A stretch of DNA of 64,000 bases from Candidatus Niyogibacteria bacterium (GTDB lineage Bacteria > Patescibacteriota > Minisyncoccia > HO2-45-28), in NCBI GenBank assembly GCA_016181935.1, contig JACOYI010000002.1, positions 63,961-127,960 on the forward strand, in the 5' to 3' direction. Shown here in pieces: positions 6,864 through 62,368 of this stretch. A program made the translations under genes and the position numbers. Position 1 is the stretch's first letter; every line of letters begins with the position of its first letter. A model generated the notes under the pieces. It was not told where the DNA came from and ran no database searches. It saw only the letters and a list, made by a program, of their open reading frames with translations.

Positions 6864-8852
6864 ATGAACCGATTTAAACTCCACTCACCCTACCAGCCGA
6901 CCGGAGACCAGCCCGCCGCCATCGAAAAGCTCGCGGCGGGTATTCGCGCGGGCAAAAAGCACCAAACACTCTTGGGCGTGACGGGCTCCGGTAAGACCTT
7001 CACAATGGCCAATGTCATCGAGAAGCTCAATCGCCCTGCGCTCGTCATTTCGCATAACAAAACGCTCGCCCTCCAGCTGTATCAGGAGTTCAAGGAATTT
7101 TTCCCACTAAACGGCGTCCACTATTTCGTCTCGTATTACGACTACTACCAGCCCGAGGCCTACCTCCCCACCACCGACACCTATATCGAAAAAGACGCGA
7201 AAATCAACGACTTCATCGACCGCCTGCGCCACGCGACCACCGCCTCCGCGCTCACGCGGCGCGATTTTGTGATTTGCGCATCCGTGTCCTGCATTTACGG
7301 CTTGGGCGATCCGGAGGAATACGAAAATGTCGCGCTCGAATTGCGCGTCGGGCAAACGATGAAACGAAAGGATTTAACCGAGCGCCTCGCCGACCTGTAT
7401 TACGAACGCAATGACACCGAATCGCCTGCCTCGCCGTTTGGCGGGCGCTACGGCACCTTCAGCGCCAAAGGTGATGTGATTTCCATTGCGTCCCCCGACG
7501 GCGCCACCATCACCGAAATTGAACTCCTTGGCGACAAAATCGACGCGATGCGGGAATACAAAAACGACATCCACCGCTCGGGTGAACGCGCCATTGAATC
7601 CAAACACTTCTTCCCCGCCAAACATTTCGTCACGCCGAAGGATAAATTGAAAGTCGCGATGGCGAATATCCGCACCGAGCTCGCCACGCGCCTCACCGCG
7701 CTCAAAAAAGCGGGCAAAATCCTCGAGGCCGCGCGGTTGGAACAGCGCGTGAATTTTGACCTCGAAATGCTCGAGACCACGGGCTATGTGTCGGGCATCG
7801 AAAATTATTCGCGCCAGTTGTCGTTCCGCAACGCGGGCGAGCCGCCGTTCACATTATTGGATTATCTCCCCGACGATACGCTCGTCATCATCGACGAATC
7901 CCACATGACCGTCCCGCAGATCGGCGGAATGTACGCGGGCGACCAAGCGCGCAAAAATGTTCTTGTGGATTACGGGTTCCGTTTGCCCTCTGCGCTCGAC
8001 AACCGGCCGCTCAAATTCGCGGAGTTCGATGAAAAAGCGGGACAGCGCGTGTATGTGTCCGCCACGCCCGCGCAGTATGAAATTGACGCGTCAGGTCCGG
8101 ATGGAATCGCGGAACAGCTCATCCGCCCCACCGGACTCCTCGACCCCGTCATCGAAATCCGCCCCGCGCGAAATCAATTAAAAGATGTGGAACAGGAAAT
8201 CGCAAAATGCGTCGCCGCGGGCGAGCGCGCGCTCGTCGTGACGCTCACCAAGCGCCTCGCCGAGGATATCGCCGCGCATTTCAAGGACGCCGGCATCAAA
8301 GCCGAATACATGCACTCGGAAATCAAAACGCTTGAGCGCGGCAAAATTTTGGAAAAATTGCGCCGCGGCGAAATTGACGTCCTCATCGGCATCAACCTGC
8401 TCCGCGAAGGGCTCGATTTGCCGGAAGTGGCGCTCATCGCCATTCTCGACGCGGACAAAGAAGGATTTTTGCGCAATGAAACTTCATTGATTCAAACCAT
8501 CGGCCGCGGCGCGCGCCATCCGAAAGGCCGCGCGATTCTCTATGCCGATATTGTGACGGGCTCGATACAGCGCGCGCTCGATGAAACCAACCGTCGCCGC
8601 AAAATTCAGGAGGACTATAACCGCGAGCACGGCATCACGCCGACCGCGGTCATCAAGCCCATCCGCGCACCGTTGTTGGAAGAGGAAAAAGACAAGCGCG
8701 ACCCCGTCGGCGCGCTCGTGAAAGATTTGTACGAAACGCTTAAGGACCATGACGCGGTCAAAGCCGAACTCGAACGTCAAATGCTCATCGCCGCCGACGA
8801 ACTCCGCTTCGAAGACGCCGCGCGATTGCGGGATGTGCTGGGAACGCTATAA
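6864..8852 (+). CDS. uvrB: Excinuclease ABC subunit B
   Basis: 662 aa with Walker A GVTGSGKT, helicase motifs and the C-terminal UvrB/UvrC interaction helix (...ADELRFEDAARLRDVLGTL). Confidence 0.95.
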   Translation: MNRFKLHSPYQPTGDQPAAIEKLAAGIRAGKKHQTLLGVTGSGKTFTMANVIEKLNRPALVISHNKTLALQLYQEFKEFFPLNGVHYFVSYYDYYQPEAYLPTTDTYIEKDAKINDFIDRLRHATTASALTRRDFVICASVSCIYGLGDPEEYENVALELRVGQTMKRKDLTERLADLYYERNDTESPASPFGGRYGTFSAKGDVISIASPDGATITEIELLGDKIDAMREYKNDIHRSGERAIESKHFFPAKHFVTPKDKLKVAMANIRTELATRLTALKKAGKILEAARLEQRVNFDLEMLETTGYVSGIENYSRQLSFRNAGEPPFTLLDYLPDDTLVIIDESHMTVPQIGGMYAGDQARKNVLVDYGFRLPSALDNRPLKFAEFDEKAGQRVYVSATPAQYEIDASGPDGIAEQLIRPTGLLDPVIEIRPARNQLKDVEQEIAKCVAAGERALVVTLTKRLAEDIAAHFKDAGIKAEYMHSEIKTLERGKILEKLRRGEIDVLIGINLLREGLDLPEVALIAILDADKEGFLRNETSLIQTIGRGARHPKGRAILYADIVTGSIQRALDETNRRRKIQEDYNREHGITPTAVIKPIRAPLLEEEKDKRDPVGALVKDLYETLKDHDAVKAELERQMLIAADELRFEDAARLRDVLGTL

Positions 8853-8940
8853 TCCCGCCGCCAGCTTGACAATCCATCTCATCTTTGGTATTCACAAACA
8901 AGCAGCTCGTTAAAAATCGCCACGGAATAAGGAGATAAGC

Positions 8941-9513
8941 GTGGACCGGCAAAAAGCCCAAGAGATCGTGGATGCGGCTATTCGGTTGCCGCTGTCGGAA
9001 CTTCTATATACGGCGGAGGAGATCGAGGAGGCGGTCCGAGCGAACACGACGGAAGTTTTCAATCGAATTCCGGAAATTGAAAATGCGCAAAAAGAATACA
9101 GGGAATCACTTCTTCGCGAGGCAACAATACAGCACAAAATAAAGAGGCTTTTGCTACGGGCAGGATTTCGCCCCTATAACGGCTGGACTCTAAATGGTCT
9201 GGAAGTGATGTGTACCAAGACCGCGAGCGTAGGCGAAGACCCCAGATACGACAAACCAAAACACATAGCAATCGTAAGGCCGAGGCGCTTTGTTACAAGA
9301 CCTCGGGATAAATGGATTGGATTGATTCATCTCTCCGAAAAATCGAATGAAATTCTTATAGAAATATTCGGGTCAAGAAATATTGCCGCGATCGCCGATA
9401 TATCAGAAAAAATCAGGCAGCAAATGAACCTTTCGGTTCGTTGTGATCTGGTGCTGAGAAAAGAGAAGGAGCTCGATGGAGATTGGATTGATGTTTGTAA
9501 AACAGGCCCCTAA
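8941..9513 (+). CDS. Hypothetical protein, paralog A (shares an N-terminal ~40 aa module with the 10706 gene)
   Basis: GTG start after an AGGAGA RBS. The N-terminus MDRQKAQEIVDAAIRLPLSELLYTAEEIEEAVRANTTEVF is about 85% identical at the DNA level to the start of 10706..11050. The remainder is low-GC. Confidence 0.5.
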   Translation: MDRQKAQEIVDAAIRLPLSELLYTAEEIEEAVRANTTEVFNRIPEIENAQKEYRESLLREATIQHKIKRLLLRAGFRPYNGWTLNGLEVMCTKTASVGEDPRYDKPKHIAIVRPRRFVTRPRDKWIGLIHLSEKSNEILIEIFGSRNIAAIADISEKIRQQMNLSVRCDLVLRKEKELDGDWIDVCKTGP

Positions 9514-9540
9514 AAACAAGGCTTAGCCTGCGGAGCGCAC

Positions 9541-9834
9541 ATGAAAAAAGCTCTAAAATGGGCGACGATTTTCTTTGTTGCGGCAACGTTTTCGATCTGG
9601 CTTGCCGGATTCGTTGATCCACAGATCAGCGATTTCTACTCGCGTCATATAACAAAATTCGGTTTCCTGTTTAAATTCGAACTCTACGGCACGCGCCGTG
9701 ACGGCCGCGGGAAAGCAAAAGCGCAAAAATCACTACACCGCCGGAAGAACGATCGCCAGCATACGCCCTCTCACGATAGAGAGGGTATTTTTATTGGGCG
9801 ACACCGAAACATCGCACGCGCGCTTGACACATAG
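9541..9834 (+). CDS. Hypothetical small membrane protein
   Basis: 97 aa with one TM (WATIFFVAATFSIWLAGFV) between paralog A and pspA. Weak evidence. Confidence 0.25.
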   Translation: MKKALKWATIFFVAATFSIWLAGFVDPQISDFYSRHITKFGFLFKFELYGTRRDGRGKAKAQKSLHRRKNDRQHTPSHDREGIFIGRHRNIARALDT

Positions 9835-9975
9835 CGAGCCAATATGTTATTCAAGCGGTGTCCCTTAAAAACCATTCGGTCCAACCTTCCTAAAAGGAGT
9901 GCAGACGTGCTTACCACCATTCTGGTCATCGCCGGTCTCGCCCTATTCTTGGGCAGTACGTATCGGACCCGATTC

Positions 9976-10695
9976 ATGCGAGTCGTGCGTTCGCATATCG
10001 GCGCCTTGATACGCCGGGCGGAAAATCCGGAGAAAATGATCGAGCATGCGTTGACAGAGATGACCGGCGCCTATCACCAAGCGCGAGAGCAAACGGCGCT
10101 TGCGATCGCCGCACAGAAGAAGATGGCGCGCCAGCTCGAGGAAGAGCAAACCGAAACCCAGCGCTGGATGGAGCGGGCGCGTCTGGCTGTGAACAAAAAT
10201 GATGACGACCTGGCCCGCGAAGCGCTCCGGCGCAAGCAGGAACATGCGACCGTGGCCCTGCAAATCGAGAGCCAACTTGTGCATTACAGCGCCCACGTCG
10301 AAAGCTTGAAGAGCGCGCTGGACGATCTCGAGCGAAAGATCGAGGAAGCGAGGCGGCGGAAAAATCTTCTCGTCGCGAAACAACGGCGAGCCGAGGCGCA
10401 GGATCGGATCTACGCCACCATGAACGGCATCCAGAACGAAGGCGGCCTCGAGCTGATCGAACGGATGGAACAGAAGATCGATGAAATATGCGATGCCGCG
10501 GATGCGCGCATCGATCTGAAATCCGAAAAAGAAAAACTGGAGATCCGATTCCAGCAGCTCGAATCCGTGGATGTCGAAACGGAACTCTCCCTGCTCAAGA
10601 ACCGGCGCGCGATCGAGTACAAGCCGGTGGAATCGCCCGTTCCCGAGCTCGACATGATTCGGGAAAAGTCGCCGCTCGCGGTAAAGCCCGCCTAA
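9976..10695 (+). CDS. pspA: PspA/IM30 family protein
   Basis: Starts ...RRAENPEKMIEHALTEM, the canonical PspA N-terminus, and has a long coiled coil. The ORF could extend upstream to 9844 with an added TM segment, but the canonical start fits 9976. Confidence 0.75.
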   Translation: MRVVRSHIGALIRRAENPEKMIEHALTEMTGAYHQAREQTALAIAAQKKMARQLEEEQTETQRWMERARLAVNKNDDDLAREALRRKQEHATVALQIESQLVHYSAHVESLKSALDDLERKIEEARRRKNLLVAKQRRAEAQDRIYATMNGIQNEGGLELIERMEQKIDEICDAADARIDLKSEKEKLEIRFQQLESVDVETELSLLKNRRAIEYKPVESPVPELDMIREKSPLAVKPA

Positions 10696-10705
10696 GGAGA
10701 CCCTG

Positions 10706-11050
10706 ATGGACCTGCAAAAAGCCCAAGAGATTGTGGATGCGTGCGTCACGCTTCCGTTGTCGGAACTTCCGTATACGGCGGAGGAGATCGAGGCGGCGGT
10801 ACGAACAAACGCAACCAACAGTATCACCCGGAATACGCCGAAGAAAATAGGAGTTTTTGAATCCATGTTGGCACATATAATGCCAAAATTTCCGAAAATA
10901 TTTTTAGTCTGCGGTTTATTGGCCGGTTTCGGAGCTTTTTTGTCGCCAATCTCACCGCTCTTTTTTCTCGCGTTTGCTTTACCATACGTAGGGCTCATGG
11001 TGACAGTCATACTTCTTGGAATCTGTGAGGAAATGCTGCGCTGGTGGTAA
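10706..11050 (+). CDS. Hypothetical membrane protein, paralog B (shared N-terminal module)
   Basis: N-terminus MDLQKAQEIVDACVTLPLSELPYTAEEIEAAVRTN followed by 2-3 TM helices. It sits immediately after pspA and is a possible PspA membrane partner. Confidence 0.5.
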   Translation: MDLQKAQEIVDACVTLPLSELPYTAEEIEAAVRTNATNSITRNTPKKIGVFESMLAHIMPKFPKIFLVCGLLAGFGAFLSPISPLFFLAFALPYVGLMVTVILLGICEEMLRWW

Positions 11051-11123
11051 AACCAGGTATGAAATAATGCGATCATTCTTAACATAAAAACTGCGCAATG
11101 CCTATTGCGTGGTTTTTTAATTG

Positions 11124-11168
11124 TTCGGCCTCGAGGACGCCGCGCGGTTGAGGAATGTGCTGGGGACG
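11124..11168 (+). pseudogene. Orphan duplicated fragment of the uvrB 3' end
   Basis: Translates to EDAARLRNVLGTL*, compared with uvrB C-terminus EDAARLRDVLGTL*. It is about 85% identical to 8808-8852 and has no upstream ORF. Confidence 0.55.
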
Positions 11169-11184
11169 CTGTAAAAAAAGAAAA

Positions 11185-11219
11185 ACCGCCAAGCCGTTTT
11201 TTATTTTTGGCTTGGCGGT
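11185..11219. terminator. Stem-loop terminator after the orphan uvrB tail
   Basis: ACCGCCAAGCC-(T-rich loop)-GGCTTGGCGGT with an upstream A-tract. This is probably the ancestral uvrB terminator. The U-tract geometry fits minus-strand or bidirectional use. Confidence 0.45.
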
Positions 11220-11440
11220 ACTGTTGTGTCGCCCGCTTTGTTCTTTCCGGAGCTGTGGCGCGCCGCGTGCCCGGAAATATCCCTGTCGCTCATTCCCTAG
11301 ACCGGGAAACGTCTTTGGGAATGCCGGCTGTCTCGCCTTCCGCCAGGTTCCGCCGGAACGAACTCTGACAAGGGCAGTATAGCGCGTATCTGTAAACCCA
11401 AGGGCTTCGGTGATGACCCCAAAAGCGCCTTCAAAAGGCC

Positions 11441-12108: not shown

Positions 12109-12987
12109 TTACTGGCGGCCGAGCAAAATTTTTTCAAGGTGGAGCGATAGATCGCTGCCGCTCTCGGCGCGCGCGTCGCGCCATGCGGCGAACAGCGAAT
12201 CGAACAGGAGCTCGACTTTGTCCGCACCGAGAAGCGTTACGCCGCGAAGCGCTTTTCCGATAACAAACGGGTGCAAACCCGTTTTTTCTTTTATTTCGGC
12301 GGGTGATGCGCCGTTGAACGATGCAACCTGAACCAATGTTTTTGCCTGCCACCAGAGTTTCCAAAATAATTCCTGTGCCGAAACTCCGGCGGCCAAATGC
12401 CGGTGATAGACCGCGTATGCGCGCCGCAGATCCCCACTCGAAAGCGCATCCGCCAGTTCGAACGGACTCAGCTCGGCGTCCTTATCCGCAATCGAACCGC
12501 CGAGAGAGCGCGTCTCGAGCGCGCTATCGATCGCCCACGGGTCCCCCAATACCGCGAGCCCCTCGATCTCATTCGCGGAGAGCGCAAGATTCCGTGTAAG
12601 CGCCTCTTTTGCGATCCACCGCTGGAGCGCCGCGCCATCTTCCGGCAATTCAAATTTCCGGAGCGTTGCCGTCTTTTCAAATTTCCTCACCGTCGCCACA
12701 TCCAATTTTTTCTCAAAAAGAATATAAAGATTTTTGGATTCAGCGAGCGTCTCGCGATAGGTAAGAACAGTTTTTTCGAAATCGCCGCCCAGTAATCCGT
12801 CCAAAACGACAACGAGTTTTGTGCCGAACAGGTCGCGCTCGGACGCCAATAAATTCGCGAGCGTTTCTTCGGTCGCGCTGTCCGGCGTCAGGCGGTGCAG
12901 AGCGGCGCCCTCCTTTTTGGCCGCGACAATGGCGCGGAGGTTCCTCCGCGACAGGAAATCGTTCTCGCCATAGAGCACATACAGCAT
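12109..12987 (-). CDS. holA: DNA polymerase III delta subunit
   Basis: Starts MLYVLYGENDFLS..., the canonical HolA N-terminus. The start was chosen at the internal Met, 2 nt after the upstream gene's stop. Confidence 0.7.
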   Translation of the reverse strand: MLYVLYGENDFLSRRNLRAIVAAKKEGAALHRLTPDSATEETLANLLASERDLFGTKLVVVLDGLLGGDFEKTVLTYRETLAESKNLYILFEKKLDVATVRKFEKTATLRKFELPEDGAALQRWIAKEALTRNLALSANEIEGLAVLGDPWAIDSALETRSLGGSIADKDAELSPFELADALSSGDLRRAYAVYHRHLAAGVSAQELFWKLWWQAKTLVQVASFNGASPAEIKEKTGLHPFVIGKALRGVTLLGADKVELLFDSLFAAWRDARAESGSDLSLHLEKILLGRQ

Positions 12988-12989
12988 AC

Positions 12990-13553
12990 TTAAAAATTCT
13001 CCGTCAGATTTTTTAATGTTTCTGTGTGACCGTCCCGGTCTAAAATTTCCCATGCGCGAATATAGTGCGGATCACGAACTCTTTTCCTTACCTTTTCTAA
13101 CCGCTCCTTATCAAATAATTTTTCCAAAACGGCAACCTGAACAGCATAAACTGGAATATGGGCTTTGGTCATTTGTGGCTCTCCTCGATATCGCGCCATA
13201 AATTTCATCCATCCTTCTTTGATTTGACCCCAATTCTCGGTAAAAATTCGGTGAATCAATTCATGCGTGAGCGTATCAATGTCGCTTTTCAATGTAAGCG
13301 TGACCGGATCAGAAAAGTTAACGCTTCCGGCGATGATATAACAAACAATTTCTTTTTCCTGCCATTGCAGTTTCGTTGCTTCCGCAATTTCCTGAAGAAT
13401 TTCTTCGCCATCCTTCGCCCATCCCCCCTCTATCTCCTGAATTTTTTCGGCGAAAATATCCTCTGGCGGCATTTCAAAACCCTCTTTTTTTATAAGAGCG
13501 CGGTCATAGAGCAGCGATCTTCGAAAAAACAACACGGGTAAATTTTTTTTCAT
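12990..13553 (-). CDS. Hypothetical protein with an HExxH motif
   Basis: 187 aa containing LTHELIHRIF, a putative zinc-metallopeptidase-like motif. It lies in an operon between polA and holA. Confidence 0.45.
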   Translation of the reverse strand: MKKNLPVLFFRRSLLYDRALIKKEGFEMPPEDIFAEKIQEIEGGWAKDGEEILQEIAEATKLQWQEKEIVCYIIAGSVNFSDPVTLTLKSDIDTLTHELIHRIFTENWGQIKEGWMKFMARYRGEPQMTKAHIPVYAVQVAVLEKLFDKERLEKVRKRVRDPHYIRAWEILDRDGHTETLKNLTENF

Positions 13554-27950: not shown

Positions 27951-30551
27951 TTGAAAAAGCGGGGAAATGTGACATTATCAACCCTAATGACCAAAAAACT
28001 CCTGCGGCTCAAAAAAATAGGGCTGCGCGCCGGAATTGCCGCTATTGTTTTGGGCGGGATCCTTGCGCTTTGGATCCTGACCCTCGATATCCCGAATTTC
28101 GAGGGGTTTTCCGAGCGAAAGATCGTTGAATCCACCAAGATCTACGATCGGACGGGTTCGATCCTTCTCTACGATGTTCACCGCGACGTGCAAAGGACCG
28201 TCGTTCCTTTTGAAGAGATCCCGCGCCACGTAAAAAACGCGACCGTCATCATCGAGGACGCGAATTTCTACAATCACGGCGGTTTTGATGTTTCGGGATT
28301 TTTCAGAGCCGTTCTTGTGAATGTCCTTTCAGGCAACTTCACGCAGGGCGGCTCGACCATCACCCAGCAACTCGTCAAAAACGCGCTCTTAACACCCGAA
28401 AAAACCTTTGACCGCAAGCTGAAAGAGTTGATCCTTGCATTGCGGGTTGAACGCACGTATTCCAAGGAGCAGATCCTTGAATTTTATTTAAACGAGATCC
28501 CTTATGGGTCTTCGGCATACGGCGTTGCGGCGGCCGCCGAAATTTATTTCGGGAAGAAGCTTCCGGATATCACCCTTGCCGAATCGGCGTATCTAGCCGC
28601 GCTCCCCCGCGCACCGACCTATTATTCCCCCTATGGCGCGCATCGCGACACATTGGATAAGCGCAAGGATCTGGTTCTTTCGCGCCTTTTGAAAAATGAT
28701 TTTGTCACGCAAGAGGAATACGATGCCGCCGCCAAGGAAGAAGTGAAATTCGTCACGCGCGGCAATGAAACGCTCAAAGCGCCGCACTTCGTGCTCTACG
28801 TCAAAGAATACCTTGCCCAAAAATACGGCGAGGAAATGGTGGAGCGCGGCGGACTTAAAGTGACGACCACGCTCGATTGGGAATTGCAGCAAAAAGCCGA
28901 GGAGCTTACGAAAAAATTCGTCGAGGAGGAACAGGAAAAATTCAACGTGCATAATGCGGGCCTCGTTGCGGTTGATCCGCAAACCGGCGGTATTCGCGTG
29001 ATGGTCGGGTCGCGCGATTTTTTCGGCGAACCCCTGCCTGCGGGATGCACGCCGGGCGCAACGTGCCGGTTCGAGCCGCAAGTGAATGTGACGGCGTACT
29101 CTTTTGGCCGCCAGCCGGGTTCGGCGTTCAAGCCTTTTGTGTACGCAACCGCGTTCAAAAAAGGCTACGCTCCCGAGACCGCCATCTTCGATCTTCCTAC
29201 GGAATTCAATCCCGACTGCGACCCTGATGTCGCGAAACAGGAGCTTGAGCCGGAAGACGAAAACCGCCCCGATTCCCAAAATCCGTGCTACCATCCGAAA
29301 AACTATGACGAGGTCTTCCGCGGACCCATCACGTTCCGCGAAGCGCTCGCACAATCCATCAACGTACCCGCCGTTAAGGTTCTCTATCTTGCGGGCCTTA
29401 TTGATTCCTTGAAAACCGCGCGCGACCTCGGCATCACCACGCTCGCCGATCCCGCGCGATACGGTTTGACGCTGGTGCTGGGCGGCGGTGAAGTGAAGCT
29501 TTTGGAAATGGTTGCGGCCTACGGCGTTTTCGCGAACGACGGCCTTCGTAATCCCGTGACATCGATTGTGAAAGTCGAGGATGCGCGGGGAAACATTCTG
29601 GAAGAATGGAAATCGGGGCCAGTTCAGGTTTTGGACACCCAAGTCGCGCGCCAGATTTCAAGCGTGCTCGCCGACAACAAAGCGCGTTCTCCCGCATTCG
29701 GCGAACAATCCTATCTAGTGATCCCCGGACACACGGTCGCCGCCAAAACCGGAACGACCAATGACTATCGCGACGCATGGGTCATTGGATATGTCCCCAA
29801 TCTCGCGGTCGGCGTGTGGTTCGGCAACAACGACAACACCGCGATGGAAAAACGCGTTGCGGGGTTCATTGCCGCGCCGTTATGGAATGCGTTTTTTCAA
29901 ACGGCGCTTCTCAGTATCGAAAAAAAAGACCTGATCCCGCCGACGCCCGAAACCATCGAAAAACCGGTTCTCCGCGGCGATTGGAGGGGCGGCATCACCT
30001 ACACGATCGATACGATCTCCGGAAAACGCGCGACCGAATATACACCGCCGCAATACCGCAAAAATGTGCCTCTGACCCAGATCCACACAATTCTTCATTG
30101 GGTGGATAAAAATAATCCGTTGGGACCGAATCCCGCAGACCCCGGACGCGACCCTCAATATGAACAATGGGAATTCGCCGTTCGCCGATGGATTTCGTTT
30201 CAAGGGATCCGCGAGGAGACAGAAGCCGACATTCCGCAGGAATTCGATGATGTCCACCGGCCGGAATATGCGCCATCGATCTCTTTCAAACCCGCCCCTT
30301 CGGATTCCTTTCCCCGGACCGGTACACTGAGTTTCGGGCTTACGGTTTCCACAAGCCGCTATCCGGTGCAGGAGATCGCGGTGACGCTGGGCGGGCGCTT
30401 ATTGGGAACGATCAAAAGCGCGCCGTATACGTTCGTCTACAATCTCGGCACGCTCGCGAATTTGAATCCTACAGAAACCGTCGCGGTCATCGCGTATGAC
30501 AGCGTCGGCAACAGCACAACGATCGAACGCGTCATCCGGATCACGGATTAA
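27951..30551 (+). CDS. Class A penicillin-binding protein (PBP1A family)
   Basis: N-terminal TM, GT51 motifs (EDANFYNHGG, GGSTITQQLVKN) and transpeptidase SxxK (SAFKP), SxN and KTGTT motifs. It also has a ~180-aa C-terminal extension. Confidence 0.9.
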   Translation: MKKRGNVTLSTLMTKKLLRLKKIGLRAGIAAIVLGGILALWILTLDIPNFEGFSERKIVESTKIYDRTGSILLYDVHRDVQRTVVPFEEIPRHVKNATVIIEDANFYNHGGFDVSGFFRAVLVNVLSGNFTQGGSTITQQLVKNALLTPEKTFDRKLKELILALRVERTYSKEQILEFYLNEIPYGSSAYGVAAAAEIYFGKKLPDITLAESAYLAALPRAPTYYSPYGAHRDTLDKRKDLVLSRLLKNDFVTQEEYDAAAKEEVKFVTRGNETLKAPHFVLYVKEYLAQKYGEEMVERGGLKVTTTLDWELQQKAEELTKKFVEEEQEKFNVHNAGLVAVDPQTGGIRVMVGSRDFFGEPLPAGCTPGATCRFEPQVNVTAYSFGRQPGSAFKPFVYATAFKKGYAPETAIFDLPTEFNPDCDPDVAKQELEPEDENRPDSQNPCYHPKNYDEVFRGPITFREALAQSINVPAVKVLYLAGLIDSLKTARDLGITTLADPARYGLTLVLGGGEVKLLEMVAAYGVFANDGLRNPVTSIVKVEDARGNILEEWKSGPVQVLDTQVARQISSVLADNKARSPAFGEQSYLVIPGHTVAAKTGTTNDYRDAWVIGYVPNLAVGVWFGNNDNTAMEKRVAGFIAAPLWNAFFQTALLSIEKKDLIPPTPETIEKPVLRGDWRGGITYTIDTISGKRATEYTPPQYRKNVPLTQIHTILHWVDKNNPLGPNPADPGRDPQYEQWEFAVRRWISFQGIREETEADIPQEFDDVHRPEYAPSISFKPAPSDSFPRTGTLSFGLTVSTSRYPVQEIAVTLGGRLLGTIKSAPYTFVYNLGTLANLNPTETVAVIAYDSVGNSTTIERVIRITD

Positions 30552-31651
30552 ACGCTCTTCATCGGCATTACCAAGTAGATATACGAAACGTCTTGCGGAT
30601 TTTGGATGACGAGCGGCCGGCCGGAACCCGAAAAACGCAACAGAACGGTCTCCGACAAAAGAGGGTCCAGCCCCTCAACGACATACCGCTGGTTGAACGA
30701 CATTTCGAGCCCCGAGCCTGTGATATCCGCCTTCATGCGGCTCGAATGTTCCCCAATCTCGCTATCCGTTGTCCGGATCTCCAGCAACCCATCGGCTGGA
30801 TACACTTTAAAACGCATTTCTTTCATCTGCCCTGAAAAAATGCCGGCGAGTTTCGCGTGCTCCAAAAATTCCGTGCGGTTCGCCGTCACTTCCGTCGTGA
30901 ACGACCGGGGAATCACTTGTTCGTAATCCGGGAATTTTCCTTCAGTGAGACGCGTAAAATAAGAAAAGTTTTGGTGATCCACGAAAAATTGCTGGCTGTC
31001 AAAAACACAATCTAATGATCCGGAAAAATTCTCAAGGATCCGAATAAACTCTCCAAGCCTACGCCACGGAAAAAGAAAAGAGAATTGTTTTGCTGTTTTG
31101 TTTGTGAACGCGCGCTCCGCAAGCCGAAAAGAATCCGTTGCGGCGATCTTAATAAGTCCGTCGGAAAATCCCCGAATAAGGACACTTGCGATCTCCGGAC
31201 GGATATCGGAGCGCGCCGCCGCAAAAAGAACGGAGTGCGCCGCTTTTAAAAAACTTTCGATAGGGACCGATATATGTTCTCCGTTTTTTATTTTCGGCAT
31301 CGTCGGAAAATCATCTTTTGGATACCCTTTCAGTGTGGAGGTTGTCGTATGTGTTGCGAAGTGAACAATAGAATCCTCCGCTTCCACATGAACCGTGTCG
31401 CCTCCCGCCGACGAAACCAGCTGGATGGTTGGACGCACCGGGATCACCGCGCTTCCTTCGCGGCGCATTTCACGGACAGGAACGGTCATTTGAAATCCAG
31501 TATTCAAATCGGTCGATCGGATAATAACCGTGTTTTTATTGGTTTCCAATAGAATCCCTTGAAGAGCCGGAATGGTCGAAACGCGATCTGCCAGATGTTC
31601 GGCGAGTTTAAGTCCTTTAGCGAATTCTATACGTGAACAGATGAAATCCAT
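30548..31651 (-). CDS. dnaN: DNA polymerase III beta sliding clamp
   Basis: 367 aa with a three-domain clamp pattern. It is positioned directly downstream of dnaA. Confidence 0.9.
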   Translation of the reverse strand: MDFICSRIEFAKGLKLAEHLADRVSTIPALQGILLETNKNTVIIRSTDLNTGFQMTVPVREMRREGSAVIPVRPTIQLVSSAGGDTVHVEAEDSIVHFATHTTTSTLKGYPKDDFPTMPKIKNGEHISVPIESFLKAAHSVLFAAARSDIRPEIASVLIRGFSDGLIKIAATDSFRLAERAFTNKTAKQFSFLFPWRRLGEFIRILENFSGSLDCVFDSQQFFVDHQNFSYFTRLTEGKFPDYEQVIPRSFTTEVTANRTEFLEHAKLAGIFSGQMKEMRFKVYPADGLLEIRTTDSEIGEHSSRMKADITGSGLEMSFNQRYVVEGLDPLLSETVLLRFSGSGRPLVIQNPQDVSYIYLVMPMKSV

Positions 31652-31884: not shown

Positions 31885-33246
31885 TCAGGATTTATCGTCT
31901 TCATAAAGGTGTGACCGAATGGTTTTCATTTCCTCCCGAAGCCGCTCATCTTTTTTCAAATCATTCGAAATTTTCAAATATGCATGGATGGCGGTTGTAT
32001 GGTCGCGGCCGCCGAATTTCTGGCCGATATAGGGATATGAGCCGCTGAAATCCTCCCGAAGCAGATACATGGCGATCTGCCGCGGACGCACAACTTCTTT
32101 GCGCCGCGTTTTTTCGAACAAAAACCGCTCCGGAACATCATAGAATTGGGCGACCGATTTGATGATGTGCTGAGCGGAAAGGGATTTTCGGGGTTTTGTG
32201 TTTTTGGAGAGGATCTCCTTGACTTCTTCCGCGGAGAGCGGGCGGCGGCGTATCTTGGAGTTGGCGACGATCGTATTGAGCGCCCCCTCCAGTTCCCGGA
32301 TATTGGTTTGAATGACCGACGCGATGTACTCCAAAATATCGGCTGCCGGCCGATATTCCTCCTTTCCGGCCGTTTTCGCTTGTAAGATCGCAAGTCGTGT
32401 TTCGTAATCCGGCTCCACAACATCCGCCATCATCCCCCCTTCAAAACGGGAGCGAAGGCGGTCGTCCAGATTAATGATGGATTTTGGCGCCCGATCGGAT
32501 GAAAAAACGATCTGTTTCGAGGCCTCCGACATCGCGTTGAAAATATGGAACATTTCCTCTTGGGAGGCGGTCCGGTTCGCGATGAATTGAACGTCGTCCA
32601 AGATCAGGAGATCGAATGAGCGGTATTTTTCTTTGATCGCCTCTTTTTCAGATGGCGTTCGAATGGCGAACATAATGTCGTTCGCGAAACGTTCCGTGCT
32701 TACATAATAGACCCGCTTTGCAGGAAAAAGAGCGCGCGTTTGATTGCCGATCGATTGCAATAAATGGGTTTTTCCAAGCCCAACCCCCCCATAGATATAG
32801 AGAGGGTTATAGGCGAGCCCGGGTTTTTCGGTAACCGCAAGAGCGGCCGCATGCGCGATCTCATTGAAGCGCCCGACAATGAACGTATCGAATGTGTATC
32901 GAGGATTGAGGTTGGTGTCTTTGTCCACATATAGCTCACGGAAATCCATCTGCTCTTCGTGCGGCTTCGGCGGCGGCGTTTTTGAGGGCGGGAGCATGGA
33001 TTGGGAGAGGATCGAGAATTCGATCGAGCGCACTTCCGGCGCGTGCGTTCGCAGATGCTTCAAAACAAGTTTTAGATATTTATTTTCAAGCCACTCTTTG
33101 ACGAACGCGGACGGCGTTCCAACCATGATCTTGCCGTTCAACTGATCCAAGATCGCGGTTTGTGCGAACCACGTTGCAAAATTTGCGGGCGAAAGCTCGA
33201 TTTCGATGTCGTGGAGAGTTAGTTTCCAAAGCTCTTCATTGGTCAT
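31885..33246 (-). CDS. dnaA: Chromosomal replication initiator DnaA
   Basis: AAA+ Walker A GGVGLGKTHLLQ, DnaA signature and a C-terminal HTH domain. The start was chosen at MTNEELWKL; the ORF could extend to 33291. Confidence 0.9.
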   Translation of the reverse strand: MTNEELWKLTLHDIEIELSPANFATWFAQTAILDQLNGKIMVGTPSAFVKEWLENKYLKLVLKHLRTHAPEVRSIEFSILSQSMLPPSKTPPPKPHEEQMDFRELYVDKDTNLNPRYTFDTFIVGRFNEIAHAAALAVTEKPGLAYNPLYIYGGVGLGKTHLLQSIGNQTRALFPAKRVYYVSTERFANDIMFAIRTPSEKEAIKEKYRSFDLLILDDVQFIANRTASQEEMFHIFNAMSEASKQIVFSSDRAPKSIINLDDRLRSRFEGGMMADVVEPDYETRLAILQAKTAGKEEYRPAADILEYIASVIQTNIRELEGALNTIVANSKIRRRPLSAEEVKEILSKNTKPRKSLSAQHIIKSVAQFYDVPERFLFEKTRRKEVVRPRQIAMYLLREDFSGSYPYIGQKFGGRDHTTAIHAYLKISNDLKKDERLREEMKTIRSHLYEDDKS

Positions 33247-33384
33247 AGCGAGTTTATTATAAATTTTCCGTGTTCTGTTCCGAAATCGCAAAATCCCAAT
33301 TAAACCTTACTATATATGTTAATAACGTGTGGATACGGTGGAAAGATTGTGCAGTGCCCGAGCGTGTTGTAGAATGAAAAAACC

Positions 33385-61456: not shown

Positions 61457-62368
61457 GTGCGACGCATAGATATACAAGCCCTCTATAGAAATTACCTCGA
61501 ATACTTGGAGATCGAGCGGGGGCGGAGCTTGAAAACGCTCGATAATTACGGGCACTATATTTCGGCGTTTCTTGAATTTGCGAAGGCGAAGACGCCAGAC
61601 GATATCACCGAGGACGGCGTGCGGGAGTTTCGGATGCGGCTCAACCGCGCGAATCTCAAGCGCCGGACGCAAAACTACTATCTTATAGCACTCCGCGGAT
61701 TCCTGAAGTATCTGGCCAAGCGCGGGGTTCCGAGTTTGGCGCCCGAAAAGATCGAACTGGCCAAGGTGCCGGAGCGCGAATTCGACTTGATTAGTGACGA
61801 CGAATTGGGGCGTCTGCTCGCCTCCCCCAACGGGTCGGACGCGAAAAGCATGCGCGACCGCGCACTCTTTGAATTGTTGTTTTCGACGGGATTACGGGTT
61901 TCGGAGCTCTGTTCGCTCAATCGGGATTCGATCAATCTCTCGCGCGGCGAGTTCAGTGTGCGCGGAAAAGGCGAAAAAGTGCGCGTGGTATTTTTGTCGG
62001 ACAGCGCGCGCGATGCTCTTAAGGGGTGGCTCGATAAGCGGAAGGATATGAGCGAAGCATTGTTTACGAATTTCCGGCGCGGCGCAAAAGACGAACTGGA
62101 TGAAAAAGCGCGGCTTACCTCCCGCTCGGTGGAGCGCATCATCAAGTTTTATGCGGTAAAGGCGGGCATCTCGAAAAAGGTCACGCCGCACGTATTGCGG
62201 CATTGTTTTGCGACCGATCTTTTGCAAAACGGCGCGGATTTGCGTTCGGTGCAGATGCTCTTGGGCCATGCGAATGTGGCGACGACGCAAATTTATACGC
62301 ACATCACGAACCGGCAGTTAAAAGATATTCATCAAGCGTTCCATGGGAAAAAAAGAAGGGCGAATTGA
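61457..62368 (+). CDS. Tyrosine recombinase (XerC/XerD family)
   Basis: GTG start. N-terminal core-binding domain and catalytic R…HxxR…Y pattern (VLRHCFATDLL…LLGHANVATTQIYTH). It is divergent from the Cys-rich gene across about 26 bp. Confidence 0.85.
   Translation: MRRIDIQALYRNYLEYLEIERGRSLKTLDNYGHYISAFLEFAKAKTPDDITEDGVREFRMRLNRANLKRRTQNYYLIALRGFLKYLAKRGVPSLAPEKIELAKVPEREFDLISDDELGRLLASPNGSDAKSMRDRALFELLFSTGLRVSELCSLNRDSINLSRGEFSVRGKGEKVRVVFLSDSARDALKGWLDKRKDMSEALFTNFRRGAKDELDEKARLTSRSVERIIKFYAVKAGISKKVTPHVLRHCFATDLLQNGADLRSVQMLLGHANVATTQIYTHITNRQLKDIHQAFHGKKRRAN

What the first reader, a model, noticed from the sequence alone, without database searches (positions are those of the whole stretch)
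8925..10830. Two paralogous small genes with a conserved ~40-aa N-terminal module flank pspA
MDRQKAQEIVDAAIRLPLSELLYTAEEIEEAVRANTTEVF (8941 gene) and MDLQKAQEIVDACVTLPLSELPYTAEEIEAAVRTNATNSI (10706 gene) are near-identical, and even the RBS region is conserved. Their C-termini differ completely: one is soluble, about 150 aa and low-GC; the other has 2-3 TM helices. This is a shared N-terminal handle with variable C-terminal modules. The TM paralog directly after pspA may act as a LiaI-like membrane anchor for PspA.
Basis: partly seen in the sequence, partly recalled or inferred. Interest (0 to 1): 0.6.

Follow-up and report, generated by a model that had tools for sequence, protein, structure and literature searches.

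The report
Duplicated gene start beside pspA
Two small genes next to the membrane-stress gene pspA in a Candidatus Niyogibacteria genome share an old, still-selected copy of the same 37-residue start but have unrelated ends; the family has only three known genes worldwide, so this is a real but local curiosity of unknown function.

Summary
geneA (8941-9513, 190 aa) and geneB (10706-11050, 114 aa) share a 123-nt direct repeat covering the ribosome-binding site and codons 1-37. Identity is 79% at nucleotide level and 29 of 37 residues, so "near-identical" overstates it. It is not an assembly artefact: dS between the copies is about 0.54, and an independent assembly reproduces the arrangement.

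- **Rarity:** Searches of billions of proteins find the module in three genes only: these two and one gene (P0002) in a co-occurring sister population, "R".
- **Position:** In R the geneA homologue lies directly after pspA, where geneB lies here. geneB therefore looks like the copy left in place, now fused to an unrelated low-GC tail with two predicted transmembrane helices.
- **Selection:** geneB's module shows 6 synonymous and 2 non-synonymous changes on its own branch, so it appears translated and constrained.
- **Composition:** The module matches pspA in GC content; both C-terminal parts are low-GC.
- **Context:** The block 8853-11124 lies between two copies of the uvrB 3' end. R has three copies, one pair bracketing a HicAB-like pair.

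A PspA-docking role for the module, and a LiaI-like anchor role for geneB, are plausible but untested. geneB matches no LiaI model. Interest is modest.

The parts
8803..8852 (+). Last 50 nt of the functional uvrB gene (6864-8852), including its stop codon. Left copy of the 50-nt direct repeat.
   Evidence: Repeat family D2 (84% identity to 11125-11174). A pattern search finds only these two copies in the window, with 0 expected by chance.
8853..8927 (+). Intergenic leader upstream of geneA. It is homologous to the leader that precedes pspA in sister genome R.
   Evidence: blastn: L001 1-132 matches window 8783-8919 at 78% identity.
8928..9050 (+). Repeat copy 1: ribosome-binding site TAAGGAGA plus codons 1-37 of geneA (the N-module).
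   Evidence: GC 0.59, GC3 0.70, host-like codon score 0.43.
8941..9513 (+). geneA, 190 aa. It consists of the N-module, a long helix (about residues 43-73) and a low-GC alpha/beta C-terminal domain of unknown fold.
   Evidence: ORF. Its homologue P0002 is 77% identical. For the C-terminal part, window versus R gives omega 0.195. P0125 is a distant homologue of the C-terminal domain only. AlphaFold2 gives pLDDT 64. No family or fold match was found.
9541..9834 (+). ORF97, an uncertain gene. Its N-terminus has one hydrophobic helix (residues 7-26), and its 3' part contains a terminator-like hairpin.
   Evidence: Codon score about 0. No family match. No counterpart in R.
9765..9796 (+). Terminator-like hairpin followed by a U-run, between geneA and pspA.
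   Evidence: Folding energy -14.5 kcal/mol, z-score -3.2.
9907..10695 (+). pspA (PspA/IM30 family), 262 aa from GTG 9907, with AAGGAG 8 nt upstream. It carries an extra N-terminal hydrophobic helix, MLTTILVIAGLALFLGS.
   Evidence: PF04012, E = 2.3e-36. TIGR02977, 1.2e-33, below that model's equivalog cutoff. The same 262-aa gene call appears. Hydropathy. R's PspA (248 aa, 57% identity) lacks the helix.
10693..10815 (+). Repeat copy 2: the pspA stop codon and ribosome-binding site (TAAGGAGA) plus codons 1-37 of geneB (the N-module).
   Evidence: It is the positional counterpart of R's module: the alignment L001 180-1035 to window 9968-10812 is continuous. On its own branch there are 6 synonymous and 2 non-synonymous changes.
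10706..11050 (+). geneB, 114 aa. The N-module is fused to a low-GC tail found nowhere else, with two predicted transmembrane helices (about residues 63-80 and 85-107). A possible internal start exists (AGGAG at 10850, ATG at 10866).
   Evidence: The chance of an open 77-codon frame in shuffled tail sequence is 0.013. Tail codon score is -0.11. The internal start was read directly from the sequence.
11086..11120 (+). Terminator-like hairpin followed by a U-run, after geneB.
   Evidence: Folding energy -14.7 kcal/mol, z-score -4.05.
11125..11174 (+). Remnant copy of the uvrB 3' end, in frame and with its stop codon (LFGLEDAARLRNVLGTL*). It is followed by a strong hairpin at 11185-11219.

Best explanation
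**What it is (well supported, about 0.8)**
- The repeat is an old partial duplication of the 5' end of a lineage-specific gene linked to pspA. The duplicated piece is the ribosome-binding site plus 37 codons.
- The simple form of the locus is seen in sister population R: uvrB end, leader, pspA, then geneA (N-module plus alpha/beta domain), then a remnant of the uvrB end.
- In this genome at least two rearrangement steps have occurred. A complete geneA now sits behind the leader that drives pspA in R. The site directly after pspA keeps only the N-module, fused in frame to an unrelated low-GC segment that encodes a two-helix membrane hairpin. That fusion is geneB.
- The whole 2.3-kb block lies between two copies of the last 50 nt of uvrB. 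It is therefore an accessory cassette inserted into the 3' end of uvrB.

**How it probably works (inferred, about 0.3)**
- The N-module is a short acidic helix-loop-helix. It is translated and kept by selection, most tightly in the copy that is translationally coupled to pspA.
- I think it most likely docks onto PspA. On that reading, geneA brings a soluble domain to PspA and geneB ties the module to the membrane. This would make geneB a functional analogue, not a homologue, of small PspA partners such as PspM or LiaI.
For: **Shown by tool results**
- The repeat, its limits and its divergence.
- Only three module-bearing genes exist in public data.
- In R the geneA homologue P0002 starts 15 nt after pspA. 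The alignment of R to the window runs unbroken from pspA into geneB's module (L001 180-1035 to window 9968-10812). R's geneA aligns to window 8929-9481, and R's pspA leader aligns to the leader of geneA.
- Selection: geneA's C-terminal part has omega 0.195. The modules have omega 0.18-0.27. By parsimony the branches show geneB module 6 synonymous / 2 non-synonymous (binomial P = 0.004 against neutrality), window geneA module 3/8, and R 4/6.
- Composition mosaic in both genomes: pspA plus module have GC3 0.65-0.77, while both C-terminal parts have GC3 0.42-0.48. P0125 carries the C-terminal domain without a convincing module, in a low-GC contig that is not next to pspA.
- geneB's tail stays open for 77 codons (P = 0.013 in shuffles) and has a clean two-helix hydropathy profile. 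Its own terminator follows.
- The uvrB-end copies are described.
- AlphaFold2 models the module as helices 3-15 and 25-34, with pLDDT 69-84.

**From the literature**
- Small lineage-restricted membrane or soluble proteins encoded beside pspA are typical PspA partners: LiaI anchors LiaH; PspM is a 2-TM protein; PspAA forms a dyad with pspA (PMC11237479; PMC9239133).
Against: - No direct evidence exists for a module-PspA contact. Complex prediction was not possible with these tools.
- The family is tiny, two sister populations from one sample series, so co-occurrence with pspA rests on effectively one or two independent observations.
- The selection test uses 36 codons and 8-11 changes per branch.
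- geneB's tail has no homologue anywhere. Its codon score (-0.11) is below the 5th percentile of real gene windows. geneA's selected C-terminal part scores just as low (-0.05), so this argument is weak.
- A terminator-like hairpin separates geneA from pspA, so geneA may no longer be co-expressed with it.
- geneA in this genome has a GTG start, and its module evolves almost neutrally (3 synonymous / 8 non-synonymous).
- This genome's PspA has its own N-terminal hydrophobic helix.
- The path of the rearrangement cannot be reconstructed from two genomes.
Confidence: 0.5

Rival explanations
1. geneB is a rearrangement scar. When geneA's body was moved or replaced, its ribosome-binding site and first 37 codons stayed behind pspA and now read into unrelated AT-rich DNA. 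The resulting chimeric ORF is made, or not, without any function, and the hydrophobic tail is just what AT-rich sequence encodes.
For: - The tail has no homologue in 5.8 billion or 1.84 billion proteins.
- Its GC is 0.44, and its codon score of -0.11 ties with an antisense frame.
- It occurs in one population only.
- R has no geneB-like sequence.
- An internal AGGAG-ATG at 10850/10866 suggests the tail might once have been a separate small ORF.
Against: - The module in geneB is the most constrained of the three copies: 6 synonymous against 2 non-synonymous changes, P = 0.004. That is unexpected for a scar as old as dS 0.5.
- Start codon, ribosome-binding site and a 114-codon frame are all intact. 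An open 77-codon tail has P = 0.013 by chance.
- A dedicated terminator follows.
- A low codon score is not diagnostic here, because geneA's clearly selected C-terminal part scores the same.
Confidence: 0.3
2. The shared 123 nt act mainly as a DNA-level recombination joint. On this reading they are a constant 5' segment that lets alternative C-terminal cassettes be swapped behind pspA by homologous recombination. This would resemble the orphan C-terminal modules of polymorphic toxin loci.
For: - Two different low-GC C-terminal parts are joined to the same high-GC module at the same codon, 36-37.
- The locus lies in a cassette-accreting hot spot marked by repeated uvrB ends.
Against: - The two copies are 21% diverged, with many synonymous differences and no sign of recent conversion.
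- Conservation is at the amino-acid level, not the nucleotide level.
- There are only two C-terminal variants, no array of orphan modules, and no toxin or immunity signatures.
Confidence: 0.1
3. The repeat is an artefact or non-coding: either a mis-assembled duplicate or a conserved regulatory element rather than protein-coding sequence.
For: The window comes from a metagenome-assembled genome, and the ribosome-binding region is part of the repeat.
Against: - The copies differ at 21% of bases.
- Three independent Logan assemblies match the window at 100%, and one of them spans both copies.
- The substitution pattern is biased toward synonymous changes.
- No Rfam family matches there.
Confidence: 0.02

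Closest known systems
PspM (Rv2743c) of the mycobacterial clgR-pspA-pspM-pspN operon
   Same: Like geneB, it is a small protein with two transmembrane helices, encoded directly downstream of pspA, with a very narrow phyletic spread (PMC11237479).
   Different: No sequence relation could be tested. geneB has a soluble 37-residue N-module shared with a second gene. No ClgR-like regulator or PspN is present. The organism is a Candidate Phyla Radiation (CPR) bacterium.
LiaI, the membrane anchor of the PspA homologue LiaH in Bacillus subtilis
   Same: It is a small membrane protein in the same operon as a PspA homologue, and it recruits that homologue to the membrane (PMC9239133).
   Different: LiaI carries the 4-TM LiaI-LiaF-TM domain, lies upstream of liaH, and is controlled by LiaRS. 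geneB has two transmembrane helices, lies downstream of pspA, and matches no Pfam or NCBIfam model. No two-component system lies within the inserted block.
PspAA (PspA-associated domain A), which forms a two-gene dyad with pspA
   Same: In sister genome R, geneA forms the same kind of tight pspA-then-small-soluble-protein dyad. PspAA is described as helical, with three helices plus a four-stranded sheet (PMC11237479). The geneA model also mixes helices and strands.
   Different: No PspAA sequence or model was available for comparison. geneA matches nothing in Pfam or NCBIfam. geneA is larger (190 aa) and compositionally a two-part mosaic.
Integrase-less elements flanked by att repeats at the 3' end of a housekeeping gene (CIME-like accretion beside integrative elements; from my own knowledge)
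   Same: The block is bounded by direct repeats of the target gene's 3' end. The functional gene stays intact. Tandem accretion is seen in R, with three repeats and a toxin-antitoxin-like pair as one unit.
   Different: No integrase lies in or next to the block; the nearest tyrosine recombinase is 50 kb away and looks Xer-like. The units are very small (0.7-2.3 kb). There is no evidence of excision. No matching element was found in viral contigs.

Membership tests
PspA/IM30 (the gene between the two paralogues) | Match to PF04012 above the gathering score, covering the coiled-coil core | tested here: met
   PF04012: E = 2.3e-36, 125.9 bits against a cutoff of 33.9, profile positions 5-216 of 220. 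The E. coli-type PspA and LiaH equivalog models are hit only below their cutoffs, so this is a family member and not an equivalog.
LiaI / LiaI-LiaF-TM | Sequence match to the LiaI-LiaF-TM (DUF2157-type) 4-TM domain | tested here: not met
   geneB has no Pfam family at E <= 1 and no NCBIfam family at E <= 5. Hydropathy shows one hydrophobic stretch consistent with two helices, not four.
LiaI / LiaI-LiaF-TM | Recruits the PspA homologue to the membrane by direct binding | not testable with these tools
   This needs complex prediction or experiment.
PspB / PspC | Match to the PspB or PspC domain models | tested here: not met
   No Pfam or NCBIfam hit for geneA, ORF97 or geneB.
PspM (Rv2743c) | Two-TM integral membrane protein encoded immediately downstream of pspA | tested here: met
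   geneB starts 10 nt after the pspA stop. Two hydrophobic helices are predicted. This is an architectural likeness only.
PspM (Rv2743c) | Sequence homology to actinobacterial PspM | not testable with these tools
   No PspM sequence or model was at hand. The family is reported as restricted to mycobacteria and corynebacteria.
PspAA | Stand-alone gene forming a dyad directly after pspA | tested here: met
   This holds in sister genome R: pspA 167-913, geneA homologue 929-1513. In the window the post-pspA position is held by geneB instead.
PspAA | PspAA domain (trihelical, with invariant R and D; three helices plus a four-stranded sheet) | tested here: inconclusive
   No PspAA model or sequence was available. 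No Pfam or NCBIfam hit. The AlphaFold2 model is of low confidence (pLDDT 64) and has no fold match.
Site-specifically integrated cassette (CIME- or integron-cassette-like) | Direct repeats of the target site bounding the inserted DNA, with the target gene kept intact | tested here: met
   8803-8852 and 11125-11174 are 84% identical, in frame and each with a stop codon. R has three copies.
Site-specifically integrated cassette (CIME- or integron-cassette-like) | Cognate integrase, and evidence of excision or an empty site | tested here: not met
   No recombinase lies in 8853-11124. The only one found among the 20 window ORFs scanned is a Xer-like protein at 61457-62368. No empty site or element was found in the viral or metagenome scans.

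The most novel reading that the evidence does not exclude
The 37-residue module is a previously unknown PspA-docking handle that arose in CPR bacteria. By fusing it to different C-terminal parts (a soluble alpha/beta domain, a membrane hairpin), the cell couples different partners to its horizontally acquired ESCRT-III-like PspA. The whole unit travels as an integrase-less cassette that accretes at the 3' end of uvrB.
Probability: 0.2. Interest if true: 0.5.

Novelty: new variant of a known kind. Interest (0 to 1): 0.3.

Why it matters
If the module binds PspA, it would be a new minimal adaptor for a bacterial ESCRT-III-like membrane-repair protein, in a Candidate Phyla Radiation (CPR) lineage where Psp systems are unstudied. 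It would also be a clean natural example of one docking peptide fused to two different effectors.

The locus also shows how a small CPR genome gains accessory genes. Small cassettes (pspA with its partner, and a HicAB-like pair) pile up between repeated copies of the uvrB 3' end.

The evidence base is only two sister populations and no functional data, so the finding is of local rather than general interest for now.

Tried and rejected
**Wider family for the module: none found**
- The 5.8-billion-protein search with geneA and geneB returned only the query itself plus P0002.
- An exhaustive HMMER profile search of 1.84 billion representatives added only P0125, which matches the C-terminal domain alone, and a junk tandem-repeat protein, P0124.
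- A JGI metagenome scan with module peptides found nothing. A viral-contig scan with module DNA also found nothing.
- Phage and plasmid tblastn searches with geneA gave no match.

**Function by homology or fold: nothing**
- Pfam, PHROGs, PADLOC and NCBIfam gave no credible hit for geneA, ORF97 or geneB.
- PDB sequence searches gave nothing.
- Two AlphaFold2 runs gave pLDDT 56 and 64.

**Specific ideas tested and dropped**
- geneB's tail as a relative of R's 76-aa membrane protein: 23% identity, E = 0.06 in a tiny database, so rejected.
- The tail or ORF97 region as a decayed or frameshifted copy of geneA, or as a copy of anything else in the window or in R: no similarity.
- The module as something derived from DNA downstream of pspA in the nearest outgroup PspA loci: nothing found.
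- P0125's N-terminus as a module relative: 63 of 2000 shuffles score as well, so not convincing.

**Scans that led nowhere**
- A uvrB-end DNA pattern gave 0 hits in viral and in metagenome contigs.
- I looked for an annotated PspAA next to actinobacterial plasmid PspAs, to obtain a sequence for comparison. None was present.
- A literature search for integration at the end of uvrB found nothing relevant.
Full report
**1. The observation**

The window holds two ORFs on the + strand. geneA is 8941-9513 (GTG start, 190 aa) and geneB is 10706-11050 (ATG start, 114 aa). The repeat finder reports a 123-nt direct repeat, 8928-9050 and 10693-10815, at 79% identity, and the alignment is. Read in 15-nt bins, similarity begins 13 nt before the start codon (TAAGGAGA in both copies) and stops at codon 36-37. 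After that it falls to 40-47% for about 60 nt and then to background.

At protein level 29 of the first 37 residues are identical. tblastn gives E = 5e-15 and 2e-14 between the copies and finds no third copy in the 64 kb. The C-terminal parts are unrelated. geneA 38-190 is soluble with GC 0.44. geneB 38-114 has GC 0.44 and one long hydrophobic stretch (62-108), broken at SPISP, which I read as two transmembrane helices.

The gene between them is a PspA/IM30 protein (PF04012, E = 2.3e-36). Its best start is GTG 9907, with AAGGAG 8 nt upstream. geneB starts 10 nt after the pspA stop codon. geneA ends 394 nt upstream of pspA, and that gap holds ORF97 (9541-9834) and a terminator-like hairpin at 9765-9786.

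**2. Not an artefact, and it is coding**

The window comes from a Candidatus Niyogibacteria metagenome-assembled genome (locus tags HYT22_00645 and HYT22_00660). Three Logan assemblies from three sequencing runs match the window at 100% identity, and one of them (L003) spans 8798-11306 with both copies.

The copies differ at 21% of bases. Nei-Gojobori estimates between them are dS 0.54 and dN 0.14. That is as deep as the divergence between this genome and its sister population: rpsT has dS 0.71 and geneA's C-terminal part has dS 0.68. The excess of synonymous change shows that a protein is being conserved, not a DNA or RNA motif. No Rfam family matches the region.

**3. How rare the module is**

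- geneA has exactly one homologue among 5.8 billion proteins: P0002, 194 aa, 77% identical.
- geneB has none apart from the module match to P0002.
- An exhaustive HMMER profile search of 1.84 billion cluster representatives found only geneA, geneB (module only, 70 bits), a junk tandem-repeat protein, and P0125.
- P0125 (168 aa) matches geneA residues about 66-176 (37% identity over 76 aa). Its N-terminus does not convincingly resemble the module (63 of 2000 shuffles score as well). It lies on a 992-nt low-GC contig and is not next to pspA.
- Scans of JGI metagenome contigs and of viral contigs found no further module.

The module is therefore known from three genes in two populations. Both populations are present in the same runs, SRR12113383 and SRR12113384.

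**4. The sister locus explains the arrangement**

In sister population R (contig L001, 4008 nt) the order is as follows:

- uvrB end;
- a 97-nt leader;
- pspA (167-913);
- 15 nt later, the geneA homologue (929-1513);
- a remnant of the uvrB end;
- two minus-strand genes;
- another uvrB-end remnant;
- 1.4 kb of low-GC DNA;
- rpsT.

blastn shows three relationships:

- R's pspA aligns to the window's pspA, and the alignment runs on without a break into geneB's module (L001 180-1035 to window 9968-10812).
- R's geneA aligns along its whole length to the window's geneA (L001 917-1466 to window 8929-9481, 82%).
- The leader that precedes pspA in R is the leader that precedes geneA in the window (L001 1-132 to window 8783-8919).

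So geneB's module is the positional counterpart of R's geneA start. The window's complete geneA sits where R has the pspA start.

Two window segments have no counterpart in R or elsewhere in the window. One is 9482-9967, covering the end of geneA, ORF97, the hairpin and a new hydrophobic N-terminus for PspA. The other is 10813-11124, covering geneB's tail and its terminator. Getting from one arrangement to the other takes at least two steps, a duplication or relocation and a replacement. Two genomes do not allow me to order those steps.

**5. Selection and composition**

geneA's C-terminal part is under purifying selection between the two genomes (omega 0.195), so geneA is a real gene.

For the module I assigned each change to a branch by three-way parsimony:

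| Branch | Synonymous | Non-synonymous | Note |
|---|---|---|---|
| geneB module | 6 | 2 | binomial P = 0.004 against neutral expectation |
| window geneA module | 3 | 8 | about neutral |
| R module | 4 | 6 | |

The numbers are small. Even so, the copy that stayed behind pspA is the most constrained, which a dead remnant of this age would not be.

Composition is a mosaic in both genomes. pspA and the module have GC 0.56-0.59 and GC3 0.65-0.77, like the host's genes. geneA's C-terminal part (GC3 0.42-0.44) and geneB's tail (GC3 0.48) are low-GC and score poorly with the host codon model (-0.05 and -0.11, against a mean of 0.33 for real gene windows). geneA's C-terminal part is clearly selected despite that score, so the low score marks foreign or different origin, not non-coding DNA.

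The module therefore looks native to the pspA unit, with two different low-GC pieces joined to it at the same codon. geneB's tail stays open for 77 codons, which happens in 1.3% of shuffles of the same sequence. An AGGAG at 10850 and an ATG at 10866 could mark an older independent small membrane ORF now read through from the module.

**6. Structure and function**

AlphaFold2, using the tiny alignments available, models the module as two helices (3-15 and 25-34) joined by the conserved LPLSELPYT loop, at pLDDT 69-84. A long helix (43-73) follows, then a poorly defined alpha/beta domain. Overall pLDDT was 56 and 64 in the two runs.

Nothing identifies the fold or family:

- Foldseek against PDB and against viral models gave nothing below E = 0.04.
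- PDB sequence searches gave nothing.
- Pfam, PHROGs, PADLOC and NCBIfam gave nothing credible for geneA, ORF97 or geneB.

Function therefore rests on context alone. The one constant neighbour of the module is pspA, with a 10-15-nt gap that suggests coupled translation. Small, lineage-restricted proteins encoded beside pspA are the usual PspA partners. LiaI anchors LiaH at the membrane (PMC9239133). PspM is a 2-TM protein after mycobacterial pspA, and PspAA forms a two-gene dyad with pspA (PMC11237479).

My best guess is that the module docks on PspA, that geneA brings a soluble domain to it, and that geneB is a membrane-tethered version. I put this at about 0.3. Three points weigh against it:

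- This genome's PspA has gained its own N-terminal hydrophobic helix (MLTTILVIAGLALFLGS). R's PspA lacks it (R's protein is 248 aa; the 48-52% relatives are mostly 226-233 aa).
- A terminator-like hairpin now separates geneA from pspA.
- geneA's module is drifting: it has a GTG start and a 3/8 synonymous to non-synonymous ratio.

**7. The wider setting**

The last 50 nt of uvrB (8803-8852) recur at 11125-11174 at 84% identity, in frame and with the stop codon. A strong hairpin follows, then rpsT. R has three such copies. The segment between its second and third copies holds a HicA-like and a HicB-like gene, supported only weakly (PHROG toxin E = 5e-4; HicB-like E = 9e-7; below the Pfam cutoff). 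Every remnant ends exactly at the stop codon and keeps the lineage's own last codons: GTL* in the window and K[T/M][L/F]* in R.

This is the signature expected from repeated insertion into the 3' end of a gene, where the incoming DNA supplies a replacement gene end. However, there is no integrase in the block. The only recombinase found among the 20 window ORFs I scanned is a Xer-like protein 50 kb away. No matching element turned up in viral or metagenome scans either. I treat the insertion reading as likely (about 0.5-0.6) but unproven.

The PspA itself is only 57% identical to R's. Its next relatives (48-52% identical) include ones named as non-CPR (a Lambdaproteobacteria MAG), in contexts with an EIIA-man gene upstream and/or a convergent Rce1-like gene downstream, and without any module gene. 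This suggests that pspA entered the Niyogibacteria lineage by horizontal transfer and that the module gene was added afterwards.

**8. Verdict**

- The "handle with variable C-terminal modules" picture fits the composition and selection data, but it describes one rearranged locus, not a family.
- The LiaI-like anchor role is an untested analogy, and membership of LiaI, PspB or PspC is excluded by sequence.
- The rival that geneB is a mere scar keeps about 0.3.
- The finding is a new, very narrow variant of the known theme of lineage-specific PspA-operon partners, set in a small cassette hot spot at the end of uvrB. Interest is modest (0.3).

Noticed in passing
window 8803-8852 and 11125-11174; L001 about 5-70, 1591-1645 and 2329-2391: The last 50-65 nt of uvrB, in frame and with the stop codon, are repeated downstream of uvrB: once in the window and twice in sister genome R. 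These copies bracket small gene cassettes. The remnants keep lineage-specific final codons. This looks like repeated insertion into the uvrB 3' end, with no integrase nearby.
   Followed up: partly
L001 1642-1905 (-) and 1919-2260 (-): A HicA-like and a HicB-like gene pair lies exactly between two uvrB-end remnants in the sister genome. Support is weak: PHROG toxin E = 5e-4, HicB-like E = 9e-7, and the Pfam HicB_lk_antitox hit is below its cutoff.
   Followed up: partly
window 9907-9975: The PspA of this genome starts with an extra hydrophobic helix (MLTTILVIAGLALFLGS) ahead of the usual amphipathic first helix. The sister genome's PspA lacks it. That is unusual for a normally peripheral membrane protein.
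   Followed up: partly
window 9907-10695; loci L008, L009, L011, L017, L018: After the sister genome's PspA, the closest relatives are 48-52% identical, and some are named as non-CPR (for example a Lambdaproteobacteria MAG from the same samples). Their contexts have an EIIA-man gene upstream and/or a convergent Rce1-like gene downstream of pspA. This suggests pspA reached this lineage by horizontal transfer.
   Followed up: partly
window 9541-9834: ORF97 has an N-terminal hydrophobic helix, a neutral codon score and no homologue-based support. A terminator-like hairpin (9765-9786, -14.5 kcal/mol) lies inside its 3' part, so the annotated 97-aa gene may be shorter or not real.
   Followed up: partly
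window 11185-11219: A strong hairpin (-22.7 kcal/mol) lies just after the uvrB remnant. It has an A-run before it and a U-run only on the minus strand, so it may be a bidirectional or minus-strand terminator.
   Followed up: no
window 61457-62368 (+): A Xer-like tyrosine recombinase (Phage_integrase E = 2.6e-46, plus an N-terminal SAM-like domain). It is the only recombinase found among the 20 window ORFs scanned.
   Followed up: no
window 12990-13553 (-): A 187-aa ORF with low GC (0.41) and no Pfam match overlaps the start of the probable holA gene (12109-13053) by 64 nt. It may be another foreign insertion.
   Followed up: no
window 30548-31651 (-) and 31885-33291 (-): dnaN (all three beta-clamp domains) lies next to a 468-aa ORF that could be dnaA, so the window may include the replication origin region. 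The possible dnaA ORF was not checked.
   Followed up: no
L014 242-748: P0125 (168 aa) is the only distant homologue of geneA's C-terminal domain. It sits on a low-GC 992-nt contig, without the N-module and not beside pspA. This shows the domain exists independently of the module.
   Followed up: partly
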